Assembly: GCA_963844965.1 (NCBI GenBank)
Contig: CAWJQC010000004.1
Span: forward strand, 1 to 64,000
DNA length: 64,000 nucleotides
Source of the DNA: an uncultured bacterium
GTDB lineage: Bacteria > Patescibacteriota > Minisyncoccia > UBA6257 > 2-01-FULL-56-20
Reading direction: 5' to 3'
The translations under genes were made by a program, and so were the position numbers. How positions within the stretch are numbered: position 1 is the stretch's first letter; each line of letters opens with the position of its first letter. Of this stretch, positions 10,200-42,252 are shown in pieces. The notes under the pieces are model-generated. The model was given only the letters and a program-made list of their open reading frames with translations. It was not told the DNA's origin and ran no database searches.

Positions 10200-10640
10200 A
10201 TTCTATAACATAATCGCAAGCGGGTCTAATAACACCTTGCCAGGTCGCCTGCCTGCCGGTTTACCCGCCGAAGGAGGACAGGCAGGTCTAACGGCCCACG
10301 CACCAAAACAAAGTTTGGTACGGGGTAAATAGGACATCGGCCGGCGCGAAGTCCCGCATAAAGCTGCGGGGTCGTCTAACTTGCCCCGCCGCACTTTAAA
10401 AAATCAAAAATAAATTTCTTGCCAGTGCTGCCGGGTCGTCTAATGGTAGGACATCGGCCTTTGGAGCCGAGTATCTTGGTCCGACTCCAAGCCCGGCAGC
10501 ACTGGCCGGAAAAGTGCGGCGGGGTGAAGTAGGACACGGGCCTTTGGAGCCCGGTATGAAGGTTCGATTCCTTCCCCCTCAGCACGAGCCACCGCAGTAT
10601 AATCCGACCCTACTCGCCATAGGTCGAGGAAGGCCGGATA
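10200..10640 (+). repeat. Cluster of tRNA-like repeats and pseudo-tRNAs; GTAGGACA(T/C)(C/G)GGCC occurs three times, gtcgtctaa twice, plus a P1/P2 palindrome
   Basis: Recurrent tRNA D-arm and anticodon-arm-like segments; only one unit folds into a complete cloverleaf. Confidence 0.5.
10429..10499 (+). tRNA. tRNA-Gln (anticodon TTG), no encoded CCA
   Basis: Acceptor tgccggg/cccggca, 3-bp D stem gtc/gac, anticodon stem tcggc/gccga with loop ctttgga, T arm cttgg-tccgact-ccaag; unusual C55 in the T loop. Confidence 0.5.
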
Positions 10641-11176: not shown

Positions 11177-11185
11177 TTCTGTCGG

Positions 11186-11258
11186 GCCGCTGGGAATCGA
11201 ACCCAGTCTTTATCCGCCAAAGGCGGACAGGCGCACCCTCACCCCCACACCGATTGTA
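11186..11258 (-). ncRNA. tRNA-like 3' portion (anticodon arm with TTT, T arm ctggg-ttcgatt-cccag, acceptor 3' strand cggcccg) directly downstream of tRNA-Pro
   Basis: Lacks its own 5' acceptor; the complementary cgggccg lies at 11399-11405 on the far side of tRNA-Pro. Confidence 0.5.
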
Positions 11259-11263
11259 ATTTG

Positions 11264-11334
11264 TCGGGGAGCCGGGAATCGAACCCGGTCTTCACGCACC
11301 CGAAGCGCGCGTACTGCCGGTATACTACTCCCCG
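11264..11334 (-). tRNA. tRNA-Pro (anticodon CGG)
   Basis: Acceptor cggggag/ctccccg, D arm gtat-accggca-gtac, anticodon stem cgcgc/gcgtg with loop ttcgggt, T arm ccggg-ttcgatt-cccgg. Confidence 0.75.
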
Positions 11335-11405
11335 GTAAATTGGTGTGGGGGCGTGGCGCACGCCTGTCCGCCTCCGGCGGATACTACCGGTATACTACGG
11401 CCCGT
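11335..11405 (-). ncRNA. tRNA-like 5' fragment (acceptor cgggccg plus D arm tagtataccggtagta, nearly identical to the tRNA-Pro 5' half), followed by a tccgcc-ggag-ggcgga hairpin and an inverted-repeat arm caggcg...cccccacacc
   Basis: No T arm; its 3' tail is complementary to the head of the 11186-11258 fragment (ggtgtggggg...cgcctg). Confidence 0.5.
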
Positions 11406-12486: not shown

Positions 12487-14040
12487 TTAAGCTCCGCGTC
12501 CGGCATTTTCCCTAACTCCTTGATCCTTTTCTTCCAGCTTCTCTTTTATGTTTCGCTTCGGGTCGTCCAGAACTTCTTCAAGTAAAACCGACAAGATGAA
12601 CCCCACTCGCGGGCCGGGCGGAATGTCCAAAATCTTCATCACGTCGTCGCCTTTAACTTTGAGCATCTTCGGCGAGATCGGGTCGTGCTTCACTTTTTCT
12701 ATCATGAACAAAAGATGGCGCAGCTTATATGGGAAAGCTTTCGGGACGCCGGAACCGATGCGGTCGGCCTCGCGCACTTTGAGCAAGTCGGGAACGTTCT
12801 CCGGGCCGACGCGCGCCAAAAACCTCCGTACGCCTGCTTCCGTCACTTCTCCCACGTTGTAGTAGAAAAGATGGTAGCGCACGAGGTGCACGACTTTTTC
12901 CGCGAAATCCTTTGAGAAACGCAGGCGGTCCAGAGCTTTCGCCGCCATTTTCGCGCCGATATATTCATGCTGATAAAAAGTTGAGTCGGGCCCCTCGCCT
13001 CTTTTTGACTTGGGCTTGCCGAGGTCGTGCAAAAGCGAAGCCAGCCGCACTTCAAGCGAATAATTTTGCTTTACGGCGTAATCAAGCGCGCGGATGTTGT
13101 GCTCAAAAACCGAATAGATGTGATGCTTGTTCTGGCCGACGCCGAGCCCCTCCCGCAGTTCCGGCAGGACATACTGGAGCAAATTCAATTCTTCCAAAAG
13201 CAGAATTCCCTGCGCGGCGCGCGGCGCCATTATTATCTTCTCAAACTCGTCGCGGATCCGCTCTTTGGCGACGGCGTCCAGCAGCGGGCTCAGTTTTTCT
13301 ATCGCGCGGCGCGTTCCCAAATCGATCTGCCAGCCAGAGGCTGGTCCGCCTCCGGCGGAAAAATCAACCCCTCGACTTTGCTCGGGGTTGGCTCGTTCAT
13401 CGAACGAGCCAAGTTCCACGGCGAACCGCACGGCGCGCATGAGACGGAGCGCGTCTTCGTTGAATCGCTCTTCCGGCAGGCCCACGGTGCGGATAATTTT
13501 ATCTTTCAAATCTTTCCGGCCGTCGTACGGATCAATGATTCCCCCAGCTGTCCACCTGACAAGACCCATTGCGATCGCGTTTATCGTAAAATCGCGCCGC
13601 GACAGGTCTTCGTCAATCGTTTTCGCGAAGGTGATGTAATCGGGATGCCGCTTGTCGGTATATTTCCCCTCTTCCCGGAAGGTCGTCACCTCTACCACTC
13701 TTGTGGTCGCAGATACTCGCGGACTTAACGCCGAATCACGCTGAAAACTTTCTGCGTTATTCTGCGTACTGTCTGCGTCCTTCCGCGGTGCGAGTTTAAC
13801 GAGCACAGTGCCGAAATCGTTCTCGTAAACCGTTGACGGATTTTCCGGCGTGCCGCCGTGGAAATTCAGAAACAATTCCTGCACTTTATCGGGCGTCGCG
13901 TTAGTCGCCACATCCCAATCTTTCGGTTCCCGCCCGAGCAAAAGGTCACGCACGCAGCCGCCGACAAGATAGGCCTCGTAACCCTTTTCGCCAAGCAACG
14001 CGCCGATTCTCTTTTACTTCTCCGGGAATGTCGTGTTTCG
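12487..14040 (-). CDS. cca: CCA-adding tRNA nucleotidyltransferase with C-terminal HD domain; N-terminus disrupted by a 1-nt indel in an AAAA run near 13995
   Basis: GYEAYLVGGCVRDLLLGREPKDWDVAT; upstream frame MERKTKHDIPGEVK continues the canonical N-terminus; carries an in-frame palindromic insertion (FSAGGGPASGWQ) at 13331-13368. Confidence 0.85.
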
Positions 14041-17181: not shown

Positions 17182-19416
17182 CTACTTCTCCAATTTCAGC
17201 GATAAAATTTTGGACGTCCCGTCCTCATTCAATGTCACACCATAGAGTATGTCCGCGACTTCCATCGTGGCGCGGTTGTGCGTCACGATGACGAACTGCG
17301 TGCGTTTGGCAAACTCCTTGAGCATTTCGGCGAACCGCCTCGCGTTCCGTTCGTCAAGCGCGGCGTCAATCTCATCCAAAACCAGGAACGGCGGCGGGCT
17401 CACGGAGATCAAGGCAAAGAGCGCGGCGATTCCCACCAAACTTCTCTCGCCGCCGGAGAGCATCTCCAGGGAATTCACCTTCTTTCTCGGCAGGCGCAAT
17501 TCAATCTCCACGCCGCCTTCTTCCTCCGGCTCTTCTTCCGCTCCTCCTGCGGTTTTGTTCTCGTCGGGAACTTCCTGCGCCTCTTCATCCGTCCCCTCTT
17601 GACTCGTGACGCTTGACGCCTGACGCTTCTCTATCTTCAACTTCGCGTGCCCGCCGCCGAACATCACTTCAAAAAACTTGCCGAACTCCTCGTTTATACG
17701 GACGAGCGCTCCGCCAAATTCTTCCTTTATCTTTTCGCTTAGGTCCTTGATTAATTTCCTCAAATCAACGACCGCTTCCTCCAAATCCGCGGATTCTTTT
17801 TTCAGGAATTCGTACCGGGTTTCCGTATCGTGGGCTTCCCTCATCAGCGCTTCGTCTATTTCACCGATGCTCGCCAGGTCGCCACGTAATTTGAAAATTC
17901 TGCGCTCAATCTCTGGTAAATCTGTCTGAGCAACTATTTCTCCGCCAGAGGCGGATCCGCCTTCGGCGGAAAATTCGCGCGAATTACGCCCGGCTTGCGT
18001 TATCTGCCTCTCCAACTCCTCGCGCCTCAGCTCCAGACGTTCCTTTTCAAACAGAATTTCGCGATTTCGCGCCTCCCACTTCTCTATCTTATCCTTTACG
18101 GCCTCCACTCCCGAAACCGCCGTTTTAAAGGCGTGATAAAATTCCTCCTGATTTTTCTCCAACGCTTTCTCCTTATTTTTGAGATCAATCAATTCTTTCT
18201 CAAGCGCTTCCAGGTCGCGGTTAACTTTTTCAAATTGCGATTCTAAAGCGGGATTCGGCTCGGGCTTCGCCTTTGCCGCGCCGCTTTCTTTTATCTTTCC
18301 GCCTAAAATCTCTTCAATTTCCTCTATTGCGCTCCGTATCGCTTCCTGCATCTCAATCATGTCGCCGCGGAGGCCGTTCTCAAGCGTGCTCTTTATCCTT
18401 TTCACGAGTTCAAGTAATTTCGCGGAACTTGCGGCCTGCCCCGAATCGCCGCGGGGAGCGGCCGCCTGCGACATTTCTATCTGCGCCTCGATCCGTCCGA
18501 GTTCCTTCTGCAGCTGGCCCTTTTTGCCGAGCAGCTCCTGCGTCTGCTCTTTTATCTTTTCAATATCCCTTCTTCCTTCGGGCTGGCTCGCTTCCACTTT
18601 CGCCTGTTCCGCCTCCGCGGCTTTTTTCTCTCTTTCAAGAACCGCGAGCTCGCCGCGGTTCGCACCCGACTTTTTCTCCACATCGGCAAGACCCGTTCTG
18701 ATATCTTTAAGCTGGCTGCCGAAAAATTGATTCTCCAGATTTAGCAATTCTTCCGCGTACTCGCCTCGTTTTTCCCAGCGCGAGGTCTGGCGTTTCAACG
18801 ACCGGAGATGCGGCAGAATTTCCTCAACCAACGCTTTAACTTTATCCAAATTTATCTGGCTGTTTTTGAGCCGCCGCTCGGCGTCCGTTTTTTTAAGCTG
18901 ATATTCCCGAAGCCCGAGCACCTCTTCTATCATTTCCCGCCTCTCTTTCGGCGAAACGCGGATAAAAACGTCGCTGTTGCCTTGCGTCACGACAACAAGC
19001 CCGCGCGAGCCGAGCCGCGCTTTGGCGAAGAAATCAACGAGGTCGCGGAGTAGAATTTCCGACTTGTTCAAAAAGTAGCGGCTCGTGCCGTCGCGCCGGA
19101 TTTCGCGCATGACGGAAACCTCGGCAAAATCCACCGGGAAAAAATTATTGGCATTCTCAAAGTGCAAACTCGCCTGCGCCTGTCCCAGGCGCGGGCGCTT
19201 CGCCGTGCCCGCGAAAATCAAGTCGTCAATTCTGCCGCCGCGCAAACTTTTTGCGTCGCGCTCGCCGAGTAACCAGCGAATGGCGTCAACGACATTGGAC
19301 TTGCCGGAACCATTCGGCCCGACTATCGCCGTAATCCCTCCCGGAAACTCCAAAACCGTCTTCCCGGCGAAGGACTTGAAACCGTTTAATTCTAAGCGTT
19401 TGAGAAAGTGGGGCAT
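17182..19416 (-). CDS. smc: Chromosome segregation protein SMC (short form, 744 aa)
   Basis: Walker A GPNGSGKSN, coiled coils, signature LSGGERSLVGIAALFAL, Walker B VLDEIDAALDE; in-frame palindromic insertion FSAEGGSASGGE at 17942-17973. Confidence 0.85.
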   Translation of the reverse strand: MPHFLKRLELNGFKSFAGKTVLEFPGGITAIVGPNGSGKSNVVDAIRWLLGERDAKSLRGGRIDDLIFAGTAKRPRLGQAQASLHFENANNFFPVDFAEVSVMREIRRDGTSRYFLNKSEILLRDLVDFFAKARLGSRGLVVVTQGNSDVFIRVSPKERREMIEEVLGLREYQLKKTDAERRLKNSQINLDKVKALVEEILPHLRSLKRQTSRWEKRGEYAEELLNLENQFFGSQLKDIRTGLADVEKKSGANRGELAVLEREKKAAEAEQAKVEASQPEGRRDIEKIKEQTQELLGKKGQLQKELGRIEAQIEMSQAAAPRGDSGQAASSAKLLELVKRIKSTLENGLRGDMIEMQEAIRSAIEEIEEILGGKIKESGAAKAKPEPNPALESQFEKVNRDLEALEKELIDLKNKEKALEKNQEEFYHAFKTAVSGVEAVKDKIEKWEARNREILFEKERLELRREELERQITQAGRNSREFSAEGGSASGGEIVAQTDLPEIERRIFKLRGDLASIGEIDEALMREAHDTETRYEFLKKESADLEEAVVDLRKLIKDLSEKIKEEFGGALVRINEEFGKFFEVMFGGGHAKLKIEKRQASSVTSQEGTDEEAQEVPDENKTAGGAEEEPEEEGGVEIELRLPRKKVNSLEMLSGGERSLVGIAALFALISVSPPPFLVLDEIDAALDERNARRFAEMLKEFAKRTQFVIVTHNRATMEVADILYGVTLNEDGTSKILSLKLEK

Positions 19417-21203: not shown

Positions 21204-21317
21204 TTGTTTCCATTTTATTGCACTATCCAAGAAACGTCAACCTGCGAAGGCAACTCCAATTATATCGTTGTATAAAACAAAAAAGCGGCGGAATTCGTGT
21301 CCTCGCCGCATGAACCC

Positions 21318-21345
21318 CCACACCTATGCATAGGTGTGGGGGTGA
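21318..21345. repeat. Perfect 28-bp palindrome cccccacacctatgcataggtgtggggg after gene 21348..21758
   Basis: Self-complementary; the cccccacacc motif recurs in the tRNA-Pro locus inverted repeats. Confidence 0.7.
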
Positions 21346-40794: not shown

Positions 40795-42252
40795 CTATGC
40801 CTTTGACTTTTTAATTCCCAATCCTAACTCATTCAATTGTTTTTTGTCCACATCGCTCGGCGAACCCATCATCGGGTCATAGCCCTCGCCAGTTTTCGGG
40901 AATGCAATAACTTCGCGGATGTTCGGCTCGTTTTGCAAAACAGTAACCAGGCGGTCAAGTCCCCAGGCGATGCCGCCATGCGGCGGCGCGCCGAAACTCA
41001 GCGCCTCAAGCATGTGCCCGAACTTCGCCTGTATCTCCGTGTCACTGTAGCCCATAATACTAAACACTGCCTTGAGTGCTTCGGGCCTGTGATTGCGCAT
41101 ACTGCCGCCGCCGATCTCCAGTCCGTTCAAAACAACATCGTATTGGCTTGTCAAAATTCCGGCAATATTTTTCTGCGCCAGCAAATCATCCATAAACTCC
41201 GGCTTCGGCGCGGAAAATGGGTTGTGCGTAAAAGTCCATTTGGTTTTCTCTCCGCCAGAGGCGGATCCCTGCCCGCCGGCAGGCGCGGCGCCTTCGGCGG
41301 AAAAAAACGGAAAATCAATTATCCAGCAAAAAGCCAAAAGGTTCGGGTCGTTCTTATCCTTCCGTAAATCCGGCCGGTCGGTTTTATATTTTTCAGCAAC
41401 ATCTTTATAGCTCAGACGCGGGAAAGGAATTTCCTGAATTTTTTTGTCCGGATAGAGGGTCTCCACTATCTTTATCAGAAGTTCTTCGTTTATCGCCATC
41501 ACATCCTCGCGTTCCACGAAGCTCATCTCCAGATCAAGTTGCGTGAATTCCGGCTGCCTGTCTCCTCTTGTGTCCTCGTCGCGGAAACAACGGGCAATCT
41601 GGAAATATTTTTCCAATCCGCCGACCATCAAAAGCTGTTTATACTGCTGCGGCGACTGCGGCAAAGCGTAAAACTGTCCTTTGAAAATGCGTGACGGCAC
41701 AAGATAATCGCGTGCGCCTTCCGGCGTGGATTTTGACAGCACCGGCGTTTCTATTTCCAAAAATCCTTTCCCATCCAGAAAATCTCGTATTAACTTGATT
41801 ATTCTGTGCCGCGAAATCAAGTTTTTCTGCAAGCGCGCGCGCCGCAAATCCAAATATCTGTATTTCAGGCGGGTTTCCTCGTTGATCTCGTAACCGTCGG
41901 CGTCAACGGAAATCGGCGTGGCTTCCGAGCGATTCAGGATTTCCAGTTCGGTCGCGCTGACTTCATAGTGACCGGTCGGCAACTTGTCGTTCACCATCGC
42001 CGGCGGCCGCTTCTTGACCTCGCCTTTCACTCGCACGACATATTCCAGCCGCAGGTCGCCGGCGCCTGATAATGATGGCCCTCCGCCAGAGGCGGATCCG
42101 CCTTCGGCGGAAAAAACGACCTGCGCTAAACCGCTCCGGTCGCGGAGGTCAATAAAAACCAATTTCCCGTGGTCGCGCCGCGCGTGAACCCAACCGCAAA
42201 GCTCAACTTCTTTGCCTTCGTTTTTTATGATTTCTGATACAGATACCCGCAT
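40795..42252 (-). CDS. aspS: Aspartate--tRNA ligase, archaeal/eukaryal-type short form (no GAD domain)
   Basis: Class II aaRS motifs, N-terminal OB fold; 485 aa; two in-frame palindromic insertions (42083-42114 and 41262-41304). Confidence 0.85.
   Translation of the reverse strand: MRVSVSEIIKNEGKEVELCGWVHARRDHGKLVFIDLRDRSGLAQVVFSAEGGSASGGGPSLSGAGDLRLEYVVRVKGEVKKRPPAMVNDKLPTGHYEVSATELEILNRSEATPISVDADGYEINEETRLKYRYLDLRRARLQKNLISRHRIIKLIRDFLDGKGFLEIETPVLSKSTPEGARDYLVPSRIFKGQFYALPQSPQQYKQLLMVGGLEKYFQIARCFRDEDTRGDRQPEFTQLDLEMSFVEREDVMAINEELLIKIVETLYPDKKIQEIPFPRLSYKDVAEKYKTDRPDLRKDKNDPNLLAFCWIIDFPFFSAEGAAPAGGQGSASGGEKTKWTFTHNPFSAPKPEFMDDLLAQKNIAGILTSQYDVVLNGLEIGGGSMRNHRPEALKAVFSIMGYSDTEIQAKFGHMLEALSFGAPPHGGIAWGLDRLVTVLQNEPNIREVIAFPKTGEGYDPMMGSPSDVDKKQLNELGLGIKKSKA

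What the first reader, a model, noticed from the sequence alone, without database searches (positions are those of the whole stretch)
17942..17973. A 32-36 bp palindromic element inserted in frame into aspS (twice), smc and cca, encoding FSAEGGSASGGE
The identical DNA, on the coding strand TTTTCCGCCGAAGGCGGATCCGCCTCTGGCGG (two tandem ccgcc/ggcgg hairpins), occurs at 17942-17973 (smc), 42083-42114 and 41262-41304 (aspS, the latter with a nested ctgcccgccggcagg palindrome), and as a variant at 13331-13368 (cca). It always lies in surface loops of highly conserved enzymes and always preserves the frame. This resembles Rickettsia palindromic elements that insert in frame into protein genes.
Basis: seen in the sequence. 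Interest (0 to 1): 0.8.

Follow-up and report, generated by a model that had tools for sequence, protein, structure and literature searches.

The report
Thirty-base palindromic in-frame insertion element
A 30-base double-hairpin DNA element has been spliced, without disturbing the reading frame, into essential genes of this uncultured bacterium, and identical copies sit in hundreds of sites in genomes of several bacterial phyla, so it looks like an exceptionally small and widespread piece of selfish mobile DNA.

Summary
The core is 30 bp, TCCGCCGAAGGCGGA|TCCGCCTCTGGCGGA: two tandem 15-nt hairpins. It lies in frame in SMC and in AspRS. AspRS also holds a 51-bp form with a third hairpin, and the CCA enzyme holds a variant with compensatory stem changes.

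Orthologue alignments show exact 10-aa insertions (SAEGGSASGG). An 81-86% identical relative lacks all copies across 22 kb of synteny. There is no target duplication, and both flanks show the symmetric target TTY^RAA.

Exact copies occur at more than 236 sites in metagenome-assembled genomes labelled as many phyla. Gene content confirms Patescibacteria and Bacteroidota (a clean 10-aa insertion in a T9SS tail). Non-Patescibacteria-type metabolic genes and a complete Omnitrophota chromosome add weaker support. The "archaeal" hits sit on misbinned bacterial contigs.

71-79% of coding copies use the two Gly/Ser/Ala frames. Both orientations and non-coding copies also exist. Viral, phage and plasmid collections hold no exact copy; viral contigs hold two loop variants. 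No paper contains the sequence, and no gene is linked to it.

Best reading: a non-autonomous hairpin element moved in trans, whose visible copies are survivors of selection. It behaves like Rickettsia palindromic elements but is not one. The enzyme is unknown.

The parts
17941..17970 (-). Canonical 30-bp element (two 15-nt hairpins) in the SMC-like gene. It encodes SAEGGSASGG between a host F and a host E.
   Evidence: It sits in a hypervariable loop of the SMC orthologues. It is absent from the sister orthologue P0122 and present in P0123 and P0130.
42082..42111 (-). Canonical 30-bp element in AspRS site 1, a loop of the OB-fold domain. It is an exact 10-aa insertion between a conserved F and GP.
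   Evidence: GTT TTT^GGG CCA; empty orthologues read GTT TTT ACG and similar. pLDDT is below 50 at residues 51-58. The insert is absent from T. thermophilus AspRS.
41251..41301 (-). 51-bp form in AspRS site 2: the same two end hairpins with a 21-bp third hairpin (CCGCGCCTGCCGGCGGGCAGG) placed between GGCG and GATCC. It encodes SAEGAAPAGGQGSASGG.
   Evidence: pLDDT is below 50 at residues 321-335. The same site holds the plain 30-mer in 8 other AspRS genes.
13330..13359 (-). 30-bp subfamily variant in the CCA-adding enzyme: loop GGA in the first hairpin, and the second stem changed compensatorily from CCGCC/GGCGG to CAGCC/GGCTG. It encodes SAGGGPASGW after a host DF.
   Evidence: It is an exact 10-aa gap against the 81%-identical relative L239. 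The identical variant occurs in L102.
13366..13410 (-). Adjacent 45-bp in-frame insertion (GSFDERANPEQSRGV) made of two single-copy hairpins. It is not a member of the repeated family but has the same style.
   Evidence: the 75-nt stretch of the insertion folds at -35.8 kcal/mol and is absent from L239. Searches show it is single-copy.
11213..11227 (-). Single 15-nt unit TCCGCC-TTT-GGCGGA (read on the minus strand). It is the 3' half of a split variant of the element.
   Evidence: The unsplit GGA/TTT variant exists in other loci.
11367..11381 (-). Single 15-nt unit TCCGCC-GGA-GGCGGA (read on the minus strand). It is the 5' half of the split variant. The 139 bp between the two halves (11228-11366) holds tRNA-Pro(cgg) flanked by its own inverted repeat.
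   Evidence: (fold z-score -9.9).
17182..19416 (-). SMC-like host gene.
40795..42252 (-). AspRS host gene. It is a short bacterial type that lacks the insertion domain.
12487..13998 (-). CCA-adding enzyme host gene.

Best explanation
The element is a non-autonomous, selfish mobile DNA of only 30 bp. It consists of two tandem 15-nt hairpins, each T-CCGCC-NNN-GGCGG-A.

**Shown**
- It is added precisely to DNA, with no target-site duplication and no loss of target bases.
- It inserts at the dyad of an AT-rich mini-palindrome, TTY^RAA.
- It inserts in either orientation, in coding and in non-coding DNA.
- Its length is 10 codons and it has no stop codon in any of the six frames.
- In the two mirror-image frames it encodes the linker-like peptides SAEGGSASGG and SARGGSAFGG.
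- The copies that persist are concentrated in those two frames. The AspRS copies sit in predicted disordered loops, and the SMC copy sits in a hypervariable segment.
- It forms subfamilies whose stems change by compensatory pairs.
- Identical copies exist in several bacterial phyla.
- It occupies the same preferred sites repeatedly in orthologous genes.

**Inferred**
- It is moved in trans by an enzyme that recognises the folded hairpins. The likeliest candidates are a single-strand or structure-specific recombinase of the kind that leaves no duplication (HUH/Y1 of the IS200/IS605-RAYT type, or another TSD-less recombinase). No gene is linked to it and the enzyme is not identified.
- The hairpins, rather than the peptide, are what is conserved.
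For: **Insertion is shown**
- There are exact 10-aa gaps in orthologues at AspRS site 1, in CCA and in a Bacteroidota T9SS tail protein (P0391 against 38 empty orthologues).
- In L087, removing the 30-bp core restores a perfect CTTTCAA heptad array.
- The 22-kb syntenic block of relative L239 (SMC 86% identical over shared columns, CCA 81%) has no copy.

**Target**
- 118 copies retrieved with the bare 30-mer show T 58/81/64% at positions -3 to -1. Position +1 is A or G in 86% of copies, and A makes up 86% and 62% at +2 and +3.
- No direct repeat flanks the element.

**Repeat family**
About 1e-6 matches are expected by chance.
- 48 non-identical relatives lie in the 1.7 Mb around the anchor copies. 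In these, 51 changed stem pairs still pair and 34 are broken.
- The same variant is shared by the window and L102.

**Selection filter**
- 83 of 105 and 66 of 93 coding copies are in the two Gly/Ser/Ala frames (p = 1e-21 and 2e-13).
- Non-coding copies are oriented 14:13.

**Loops**
- pLDDT is below 50 only at the two inserts and at two other loops (residues 172-183 and 223-234, which lie where class-II synthetases have mobile active-site loops).

**Hairpins**
- Single-stranded DNA folds at -12.8 kcal/mol with z-scores of -3.5 to -3.9.

**Recurrence**
- Filled AspRS and SMC alleles are scattered among empty ones on the trees.
- Flanking synonymous sites are saturated.

**No linked gene**
- Clustering of all ORFs in 238 loci gives only housekeeping host families.
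Against: - No transposase or other partner enzyme was found, so mobility in trans is an inference.
- The symmetric bias on both flanks of oriented copies does not fit the one-sided targets of IS200/IS605 elements.
- No strand bias was seen in non-coding copies, although n = 27 is small.
- The exact element is absent from 2.9 million viral contigs, GenBank phages and PLSDB plasmids. Only two loop variants occur in viral contigs. There is therefore no obvious vehicle for spread between phyla.
- All AspRS alleles filled at site 2 share a shortened native loop (EKTK, ENTK, EKAL) that empty alleles do not have. Pure independent insertion does not explain this.
- Retrieval by exact match inflates the impression of sequence invariance.
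- Taxon labels of metagenome-assembled genomes are unreliable: three 'archaeal' loci proved to be bacterial.
Confidence: 0.7

Rival explanations
1. The element is a functional DNA or RNA motif kept by selection. It could be a protein-binding site, a DNA-uptake signal for these competence-dependent bacteria, or an RNA hairpin affecting processing or translation. In this view its identity across lineages reflects purifying selection or biased transfer rather than recent transposition.
For: - The insert is identical while the flanking synonymous sites are saturated (third-position identity 0.93 against about 0.43).
- Compensatory stem changes preserve the hairpins.
- The same orthologous sites are filled in distant lineages.
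- Some copies sit just upstream of start codons, where their GGAG end could act as a ribosome-binding site (L012, L019, L029, L093).
- Patescibacteria contigs carry type IV pilus genes, which could serve competence.
Against: - The element arrives as a 30-bp insertion, not by point mutation as uptake sequences do.
- Its density is only about one per 16-35 kb.
- It occurs in unrelated genes, in both orientations, in coding and non-coding DNA, and in phyla with different biology.
- Close relatives do without it.
- Unbiased samples show decayed copies, such as SAEGGSSSGG, SAEGGEK and SARGGQTVGS.
- The high identity is partly caused by selecting exact matches.
Confidence: 0.12
2. The 30-mer is not the mobile unit. 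It is the two 15-bp ends of a larger transposon family left with nothing between them, either as a 'solo-ends' internal-deletion derivative or as an excision remnant. The forms with a third hairpin or with cargo would then be the more complete members.
For: - Forms with 21-36 bp between the two end hairpins occur in the window and in L013, L037, L091 and L231.
- A split variant encloses 139 bp (11228-11366) containing tRNA-Pro.
- 15 bp is a typical length for a terminal inverted repeat (own knowledge).
Against: - No member carrying an ORF was found in 1.7 Mb around 238 copies.
- The inner pieces are themselves unrelated small hairpins, so they look like secondary insertions at the dyad.
- Relative L239 has the tRNA-Pro cassette without the end units.
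- The plain 30-mer is by far the commonest form.
Confidence: 0.12
3. The peptide is ancestral or convergent sequence native to these proteins, not an insertion.
For: The same peptide appears at the same site in AspRS genes that are only 49-75% identical.
Against: - The great majority of orthologues, including the closest ones, lack it.
- The same 30 nt occur in dozens of unrelated genes and in non-coding DNA.
Confidence: 0.02
4. The element is a laboratory or assembly artefact, such as a palindromic adapter or linker, or chimeric joins at a repeat.
For: - It is palindromic and contains a BamHI site.
- It encodes a linker-like Gly/Ser peptide.
- It is seen only in metagenome assemblies.
Against: - It occurs in assemblies from many laboratories, sites and assemblers.
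- The orthologous protein continues in frame on both sides.
- Diverged and compensated variants and nested forms exist.
- There is strong frame bias and target preference.
- The element is shorter than the assemblers' final k-mers (own knowledge).
Confidence: 0.02

Closest known systems
Rickettsia palindromic elements (RPE)
   Same: - Palindromic repeats inserted in frame into unrelated, often essential, protein genes.
- They add a conserved peptide in tolerated positions.
- No transposase is linked, and they are regarded as selfish DNA (PMC10969869).
   Different: - RPEs are about 150 bp, fall into some ten families and are confined to Rickettsia.
- This element is 30 bp.
- Its exact copies occur in at least Patescibacteria and Bacteroidota, and in Omnitrophota- and Planctomycetota-labelled genomes.
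- It shows a defined TTY^RAA target without duplication.
REP/REPIN sequences mobilised by RAYT (HUH Y1) transposases
   Same: - Size of 20-40 bp.
- GC-rich imperfect palindromes, often in pairs.
- Hairpin structure maintained.
- No target duplication.
- Presumed single-strand hairpin recognition (PMC3733652 abstract; otherwise own knowledge).
   Different: - REPs carry a GTAG or CGTC head, are extragenic and are specific to a genome or species.
- This element starts with TCCGCC, is mostly intragenic in the sampled genomes and is shared across phyla.
- No RAYT gene was found nearby.
Prokaryotic MITEs (for example Correia, Nezha, ERIC)
   Same: - Non-autonomous.
- Multi-copy.
- Terminal inverted symmetry.
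- Occasional in-frame fusions with host genes.
   Different: - MITEs are 50-800 bp (PMC11602168), have target-site duplications, and about 90% are intergenic.
- This element is 30 bp, has no duplication, and consists of nothing but its two 'ends'.
IS200/IS605 family and its palindrome-associated derivatives (PATEs)
   Same: - Hairpins at both ends.
- Insertion without duplication next to a short specific sequence.
- Wide distribution in bacteria and archaea (own knowledge).
   Different: - Those elements recognise a 4-5-nt target on one side only and show strand bias.
- Here both flanks are constrained symmetrically and no strand bias was detectable.
- The element leaves no room for guide sequences outside the hairpins.
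DNA uptake sequences (USS/DUS)
   Same: - Short motif shared among related genomes.
- Tolerated in particular reading frames inside genes.
- Often palindromic pairs.
   Different: - Uptake sequences accumulate by point mutation and biased uptake at about one per kb (own knowledge).
- This element arrives as a discrete 30-bp insertion at about one per 16-35 kb.

Membership tests
Rickettsia palindromic elements (RPE) | Palindromic repeat inserted in frame in protein-coding genes, adding a conserved peptide | tested here: met
Rickettsia palindromic elements (RPE) | Length of about 100-150 bp and membership of one of the RPE sequence families | tested here: not met
   The core is 30 bp. RPEs are about 150 bp (PMC10969869).
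Rickettsia palindromic elements (RPE) | Restricted to Rickettsia and close relatives | tested here: not met
   The hosts are Patescibacteria, Bacteroidota and Omnitrophota-labelled MAGs, among others.
MITE | Target-site duplication flanking the element | tested here: not met
   Filled and empty site pairs show a clean 30-bp gain with no direct repeat.
MITE | Terminal inverted repeats, no coding capacity of its own, multi-copy | tested here: met
   The two 15-nt units are inverted copies of each other apart from the loops. More than 236 exact copies were found.
MITE | Size of 50-800 bp | tested here: not met
   The element is 30 bp. The size range is taken from PMC11602168.
REP/REPIN (RAYT-associated) | 20-40 bp GC-rich imperfect palindrome | tested here: met
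REP/REPIN (RAYT-associated) | Conserved GTAG or CGTC tetranucleotide at one end | tested here: not met
   The element begins with TCCG and its flanks are TTY/RAA. The criterion comes from the PMC3733652 abstract.
REP/REPIN (RAYT-associated) | Extragenic location | tested here: not met
   About 80-90% of copies lie in long ORFs.
REP/REPIN (RAYT-associated) | A RAYT gene present in the same genome | not tested
   Only 8-14 kb around each copy and one 64-kb window were available. No recurrent neighbouring gene was found.
IS200/IS605-derived PATE | No target duplication and hairpins at both ends | tested here: met
IS200/IS605-derived PATE | Insertion 3' of a specific tetra- or pentanucleotide on one strand only | tested here: inconclusive
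   A 5' TTY preference is present, but an equally strong 3' RAA preference is seen in oriented copies.
IS200/IS605-derived PATE | Orientation bias with respect to replication (lagging-strand template) | tested here: inconclusive
   Non-coding copies split 14:13 relative to local GC skew. Coding copies simply follow the gene strand.
DNA uptake sequence | Arises by point substitutions and is very dense (about one per kb) | tested here: not met
   The element is a discrete 30-bp indel and its density is one per 16-35 kb.

The most novel reading that the evidence does not exclude
The 30-mer may be the smallest known autonomous-looking mobile unit. It would be a bare double hairpin that needs no element-encoded transposase and is inserted at palindrome dyads by a structure-specific enzyme common to many bacteria, such as a junction- or hairpin-processing nuclease/ligase or a widely shared recombinase. 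That would explain several observations:
- Identical copies are active in several phyla.
- No linked gene exists.
- It is nearly absent from viruses and plasmids.
- It re-hits the same TTY^RAA sites.
- Its own dyad receives further hairpins, and even a tRNA cassette.
Probability: 0.15. Interest if true: 0.9.

Novelty: new variant of a known kind. Interest (0 to 1): 0.7.

Why it matters
- **A new lower size limit.** If confirmed, this would be mobile DNA well below the size range that MITE and repeat finders scan (50 bp and up), so it is invisible to standard annotation. It nevertheless alters essential proteins (AspRS, SMC, CCA enzyme, and others such as MnmA-, GatC-, RecA- and release-factor-like proteins by motif) in the large uncultured Patescibacteria radiation and in other phyla.
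- **A marker of genetic exchange.** The shared 30-mer marks recent exchange, or a shared enzymatic activity, across phyla in groundwater and sediment communities.
- **A natural experiment.** The filled and empty alleles show which protein loops tolerate a 10-residue Gly/Ser linker.
- **A practical warning.** The insert can break HMM domain matches. The T9SS tail domain is not called in the filled protein P0391 but is called in its empty orthologues.
- **A path to the enzyme.** Finding the enzyme that places a 30-nt hairpin precisely and scarlessly at TTY^RAA could have tool value.

Tried and rejected
- **Literature.** Full-text search for the DNA and peptide strings found nothing. Topic searches found only general MITE, RPE and REP papers.
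- **Rfam.** No family matched the element.
- **Vectors.** There was no exact copy in IMG/VR viral contigs, GenBank phages or PLSDB plasmids. A loop-degenerate pattern found only two viral contigs.
- **Partner gene.** All-against-all clustering of 4227 ORFs from 238 loci gave only housekeeping host families and no transposase.
- **Replication-strand bias.** GC skew follows the coding strand, and non-coding copies split 14:13.
- **Insertion into larger palindromes.** Enrichment is only 2-3-fold and affects few copies, so it is not a defining feature.
- **'Designed' stop-free sequence.** 38% of shuffles of the 30-mer are also stop-free in six frames, so this is not evidence of design.
- **Cross-domain spread.** This was rejected. 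The 'Methanosarcinales' and 'Nanoarchaeota' loci carry bacterial PilM/PilN, T2SS-K, PilB with an MshEN domain, and FtsK-gamma genes.
- **Recent co-transfer of flanks with the element in AspRS.** Flanking synonymous sites are at background identity, apart from a slight rise just upstream.
- **Retrieving the rest of the source contig.** The two window proteins tried (SMC and AspRS) are not on record in the contig index.
- **Outer tRNA.** ARAGORN run with introns allowed did not call the outer tRNA-like shell at 11185-11405.
Full report
**1. Checking the observation**

The 32-mer TTTTCCGCCGAAGGCGGATCCGCCTCTGGCGG occurs exactly twice on the minus strand, at 17942-17973 and 42083-42114. None of 100 shuffles of the window produced a match.

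A third copy at 41251-41301 has the same ends with 21 extra bases inside. A fourth, at 13330-13359, is a variant.

The host ORFs are:
- an SMC-like ATPase (17182-19416, minus strand);
- a short bacterial-type AspRS (40795-42252, minus strand);
- a CCA-adding enzyme (12487-13998, minus strand).

All four copies are in frame.

**2. Anatomy**

The repeated unit is 30 bp: TCCGCCGAAGGCGGA followed by TCCGCCTCTGGCGGA. These are two tandem 15-nt hairpins, each with a 6-bp stem and a 3-nt loop. The whole is a near-palindrome centred on GGA|TCC.

As single-stranded DNA, either strand folds into the two hairpins at -12.8 kcal/mol, with z-scores of about -3.5 to -3.9.

Several independent filled/empty comparisons show that the mobile unit is exactly 30 bp and that the flanking T's and A's belong to the host:
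- AspRS site 1 is a gap of exactly ten residues (SAEGGSASGG) between a conserved Phe and Gly-Pro. At the DNA level it reads GTT TTT^GGG CCA, against GTT TTT ACG, GTT TTT AAC and similar in empty genes.
- The CCA enzyme of a relative (81% identical) lacks exactly the ten residues after Asp-Phe.
- In a Bacteroidota/Ignavibacteria T9SS-tail protein, the filled allele reads YEVKF[SAEGGSASGG]DAGKLASGIY. Its 81%-identical orthologue reads YEIKF-DAGKLASGIY, and 38 of 40 orthologues are empty.
- In locus L087, deleting the 30-bp core restores a perfect array of CTTTCAA heptads.

None of these shows a target-site duplication or a loss of target bases.

**3. Target**

I retrieved copies with the bare 30-mer, so that neither flank was imposed. 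I oriented them by the asymmetric loops (GAA, then TCT). The 118 metagenome copies show:
- T at positions -3, -2 and -1 in 58%, 81% and 64% of copies (plus C in 24% at -1);
- A, G or C at +1 in 49%, 37% and 12%;
- A at +2 in 86% and at +3 in 62%.

The target is therefore the mini-palindrome TTY^RAA, cut at its dyad. In coding DNA this explains the recurring Phe before the insert and the Glu, Lys, Asp or Asn after it. A minority of copies sit at the centre of longer palindromes such as terminator-like hairpins, with a 2-3-fold enrichment.

**4. Distribution**

A scan of JGI metagenome contigs hit its limit at 120. About 1e-6 matches are expected by chance.

All hits are metagenome-assembled genomes or contigs. 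Sample names point largely to groundwater and other subsurface or sediment sites on several continents. Most are Patescibacteria (CPR). Others are labelled Omnitrophota (including a complete 1.55-Mb chromosome), Bacteroidota/Ignavibacteria, Planctomycetota/Brocadiia, Cloacimonadota, Elusimicrobiota, Kiritimatiellia and more.

I tested the labels where I could.
- The T9SS sorting domain with SBBP repeats (L074) and the family-wide alignment for L088 establish genuine Bacteroidota hosts.
- L017 interrupts an adenylosuccinate lyase and L071 a 2-hydroxyglutaryl-CoA dehydratase subunit. Neither is typical Patescibacteria gene content (the typicality is own knowledge).
- The three loci labelled archaeal carry bacterial type IV pilus, T2SS and FtsK-gamma genes, so they are misbinned. 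Cross-domain spread is not supported.

The exact element is absent from 2.9 million viral contigs, GenBank phages and PLSDB plasmids. Only two loop variants occur in viral contigs.

**5. Frames and orientation**

All six frames of the element are open. This is not remarkable for its composition, because 38% of shuffles are also stop-free.

Among copies lying in long ORFs, 83 of 105 (genomes) and 66 of 93 (metagenomes) use the two mirror-image frames that read SAEGGSASGG or SARGGSAFGG. One third would be expected by chance (p about 1e-21 and 2e-13). The first frame is preferred 2-3.6-fold over the second.

Non-coding copies show no orientation bias relative to GC skew, at 14:13.

I read this as insertion in either orientation followed by selection for the harmless Gly/Ser/Ala translation. 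The AlphaFold2 model of the window's AspRS (mean pLDDT 82) has pLDDT below 50 only at the two inserts (residues 51-58 and 321-335) and at two other loops, 172-183 and 223-234, which lie where class-II synthetases have mobile active-site loops (the assignment is own knowledge). Comparison with T. thermophilus AspRS and B. stearothermophilus CCA enzyme confirms that the segments are extra. The SMC copy lies in a segment that is hypervariable in all orthologues.

**6. A family with conserved structure**

In the 1.7 Mb surrounding the anchor copies there are 48 further relatives with 1-7 differences, and almost no further exact copies. Retrieval by exact match therefore exaggerates the element's invariance.

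Differences concentrate in the loops. In the stems they tend to come as compensatory pairs, such as CAGCC/GGCTG, CCTCC/GGAGG and GCGCC/GGCGC: 51 changed pairs still pair and 34 do not. The CCA-gene variant of the window recurs base for base in L102, so subfamilies propagate.

Longer forms carry a third, variable hairpin of 21-36 bp between GGCG and GATCC. A single-unit form (SAEGG) also exists, probably produced by slippage between the tandem units (P0118).

**7. Recency and recurrence**

A relative of the window organism (SMC 86% identical over shared columns, CCA 81%) is syntenic over 22 kb and has no copy at all.

On an AspRS tree, the alleles filled at site 2 fall in at least six places among empty ones, and the alleles filled at site 1 fall in three.

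On an SMC tree, P0121 is filled and its sister P0122 is empty. P0123 is filled with a nested form. The distant P0130 is filled while its sister P0131 is empty.

Nine AspRS genes that share the exact 30-mer at site 2 are only 49-75% identical in protein. Their synonymous third positions are saturated, at about 0.43 identity against 0.93 inside the element. Only a slight rise is seen just upstream.

The pattern nevertheless argues for repeated hits on a very good target (TTTTTT^GAAAA) plus a tolerance filter, not for ancestry.

One detail remains unexplained. Every allele filled at site 2 has a short native loop after the element (EKTK, ENTK, EKAL, ETK), whereas the empty alleles read EKTDEGG.

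**8. How it most likely works**

*Shown:*
- a precise, scarless 30-bp gain at TTY^RAA;
- both orientations;
- multi-copy subfamilies with conserved hairpins;
- survivorship in benign frames, and in loops where this could be checked (AspRS model, SMC alignment);
- presence of identical copies in several phyla;
- no linked gene.

*Inferred:* the element is moved in trans as folded or single-stranded DNA by a recombinase of a class that makes no duplication. An HUH/Y1 enzyme of the IS200/IS605-RAYT kind is the most natural candidate. I give that specific identification only about 0.25, because the two-sided symmetric target and the lack of strand bias do not fit it well. I give the general model (a selfish, non-autonomous insertion element) 0.7.

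*Rivals:*
- a selected DNA or RNA motif or uptake signal (0.12);
- the bare ends of a larger transposon (0.12);
- ancestral sequence (0.02);
- artefact (0.02).

**9. Comparison with known systems**

In behaviour the element is closest to Rickettsia palindromic elements, but it fails their size, sequence-family and host criteria. In size and hairpin nature it resembles REP sequences, but it lacks the GTAG/CGTC head and is intragenic. It fails the MITE criteria of target duplication and of size of at least 50 bp. It is not an uptake sequence, because it arrives as an indel.

No paper in the searchable library contains the sequence. That library does not cover most subscription journals.

I therefore classify it as a new variant of a known kind, namely in-frame palindromic selfish DNA. 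Three features are unusual: extreme smallness, scarless insertion at a palindromic target, and identical copies across phyla.

**10. Verdict**

The element turns out to be far more widespread than one genome. The enzyme and the route between phyla are open questions. Interest 0.7.

Noticed in passing
window 11185-11405 (minus strand): A nest of structures.
- The outermost layer is a tRNA-like shell with acceptor stem, D arm and T arm but no anticodon loop.
- Inside it are the two halves of a variant of the element (loops GGA and TTT).
- These enclose a long inverted repeat (CAGGCG..CCCCCACACC / GGTGTGGGGG..CGCCTG).
- That repeat encloses an intact tRNA-Pro(cgg).

The whole folds as one long helix tipped by the tRNA (z-score -9.9). 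ARAGORN calls only the inner tRNA. Relative L239 (19760-20095) keeps the tRNA-Pro, the inverted repeat and remnants of the shell, but carries other hairpins in place of the element halves.
   Followed up: partly
window 13366-13410 (minus strand, in the CCA gene): A second in-frame insertion of 45 bp (GSFDERANPEQSRGV) lies right next to the element variant. It is made of two hairpins that are single-copy in the window and in all 241 loci, and it is absent from the 81%-identical relative. Unique palindromes are therefore also being added in frame.
   Followed up: partly
window 21314-21343: A perfect 30-bp palindrome, ACCCCCACACCTATG|CATAGGTGTGGGGGT, lies in an intergenic spot. Its arms are the same CCCCCACACC motif that flanks tRNA-Pro at 11242-11351. 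It may be another small palindromic repeat family.
   Followed up: no
AspRS orthologues P0002-P0120, at the site equivalent to window 41251-41301: The same loop carries other recurrent insert peptides in other lineages: PSTGSGQAG, AHSEASA, HPELVEGR...GSTGSPQTS. These may be further families of in-frame insertions in Patescibacteria; their DNA was not examined.
   Followed up: no
L006 1000-1160: A complete tRNA-Glu(ttc) is followed by a second, partial copy. The element sits in the anticodon loop of that copy (TTTT^CAT), and its 5' half is degenerate.
   Followed up: partly
L012, L019, L029, L093: The element lies immediately upstream of the start codon of orthologous genes of about 500 aa (GGCGGAGAATAAAATG). 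Its GGAG end is placed where a ribosome-binding site would be.
   Followed up: no
L053, L087 (MAG labelled Nanoarchaeota) and L096 (MAG labelled Methanosarcinales): These contigs carry bacterial type IV pilus, T2SS and FtsK-gamma genes. They are probably misbinned bacterial (likely Patescibacteria) contigs inside archaeal MAGs.
   Followed up: yes
window 10515-10582 (plus strand): Rfam finds a second, weaker tRNA (32.8 bits) with a UUG anticodon loop, a shortened D loop and acceptor-stem mismatches. It lies 16 bp after tRNA-Gln(ttg) and ARAGORN does not call it. It may be a decaying tandem copy.
   Followed up: no
window 40795-42252: This AspRS is of the bacterial type by sequence, but it lacks the roughly 140-residue insertion domain present in the T. 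thermophilus and E. coli enzymes. The element sits close to where that domain would be.
   Followed up: partly
P0403 (orthologue of the L088 T9SS protein): The same F^D site carries SARGGQTVGS. This looks like a decayed copy of the element in the opposite orientation, that is, a second independent hit on the same site in Bacteroidota.
   Followed up: no
P0391 against P0392-P0430: The precomputed Pfam T9SS tail domain (PF18962) is missing only, or mainly, from the protein that carries the insert. The 10-residue insertion is enough to break domain annotation.
   Followed up: no
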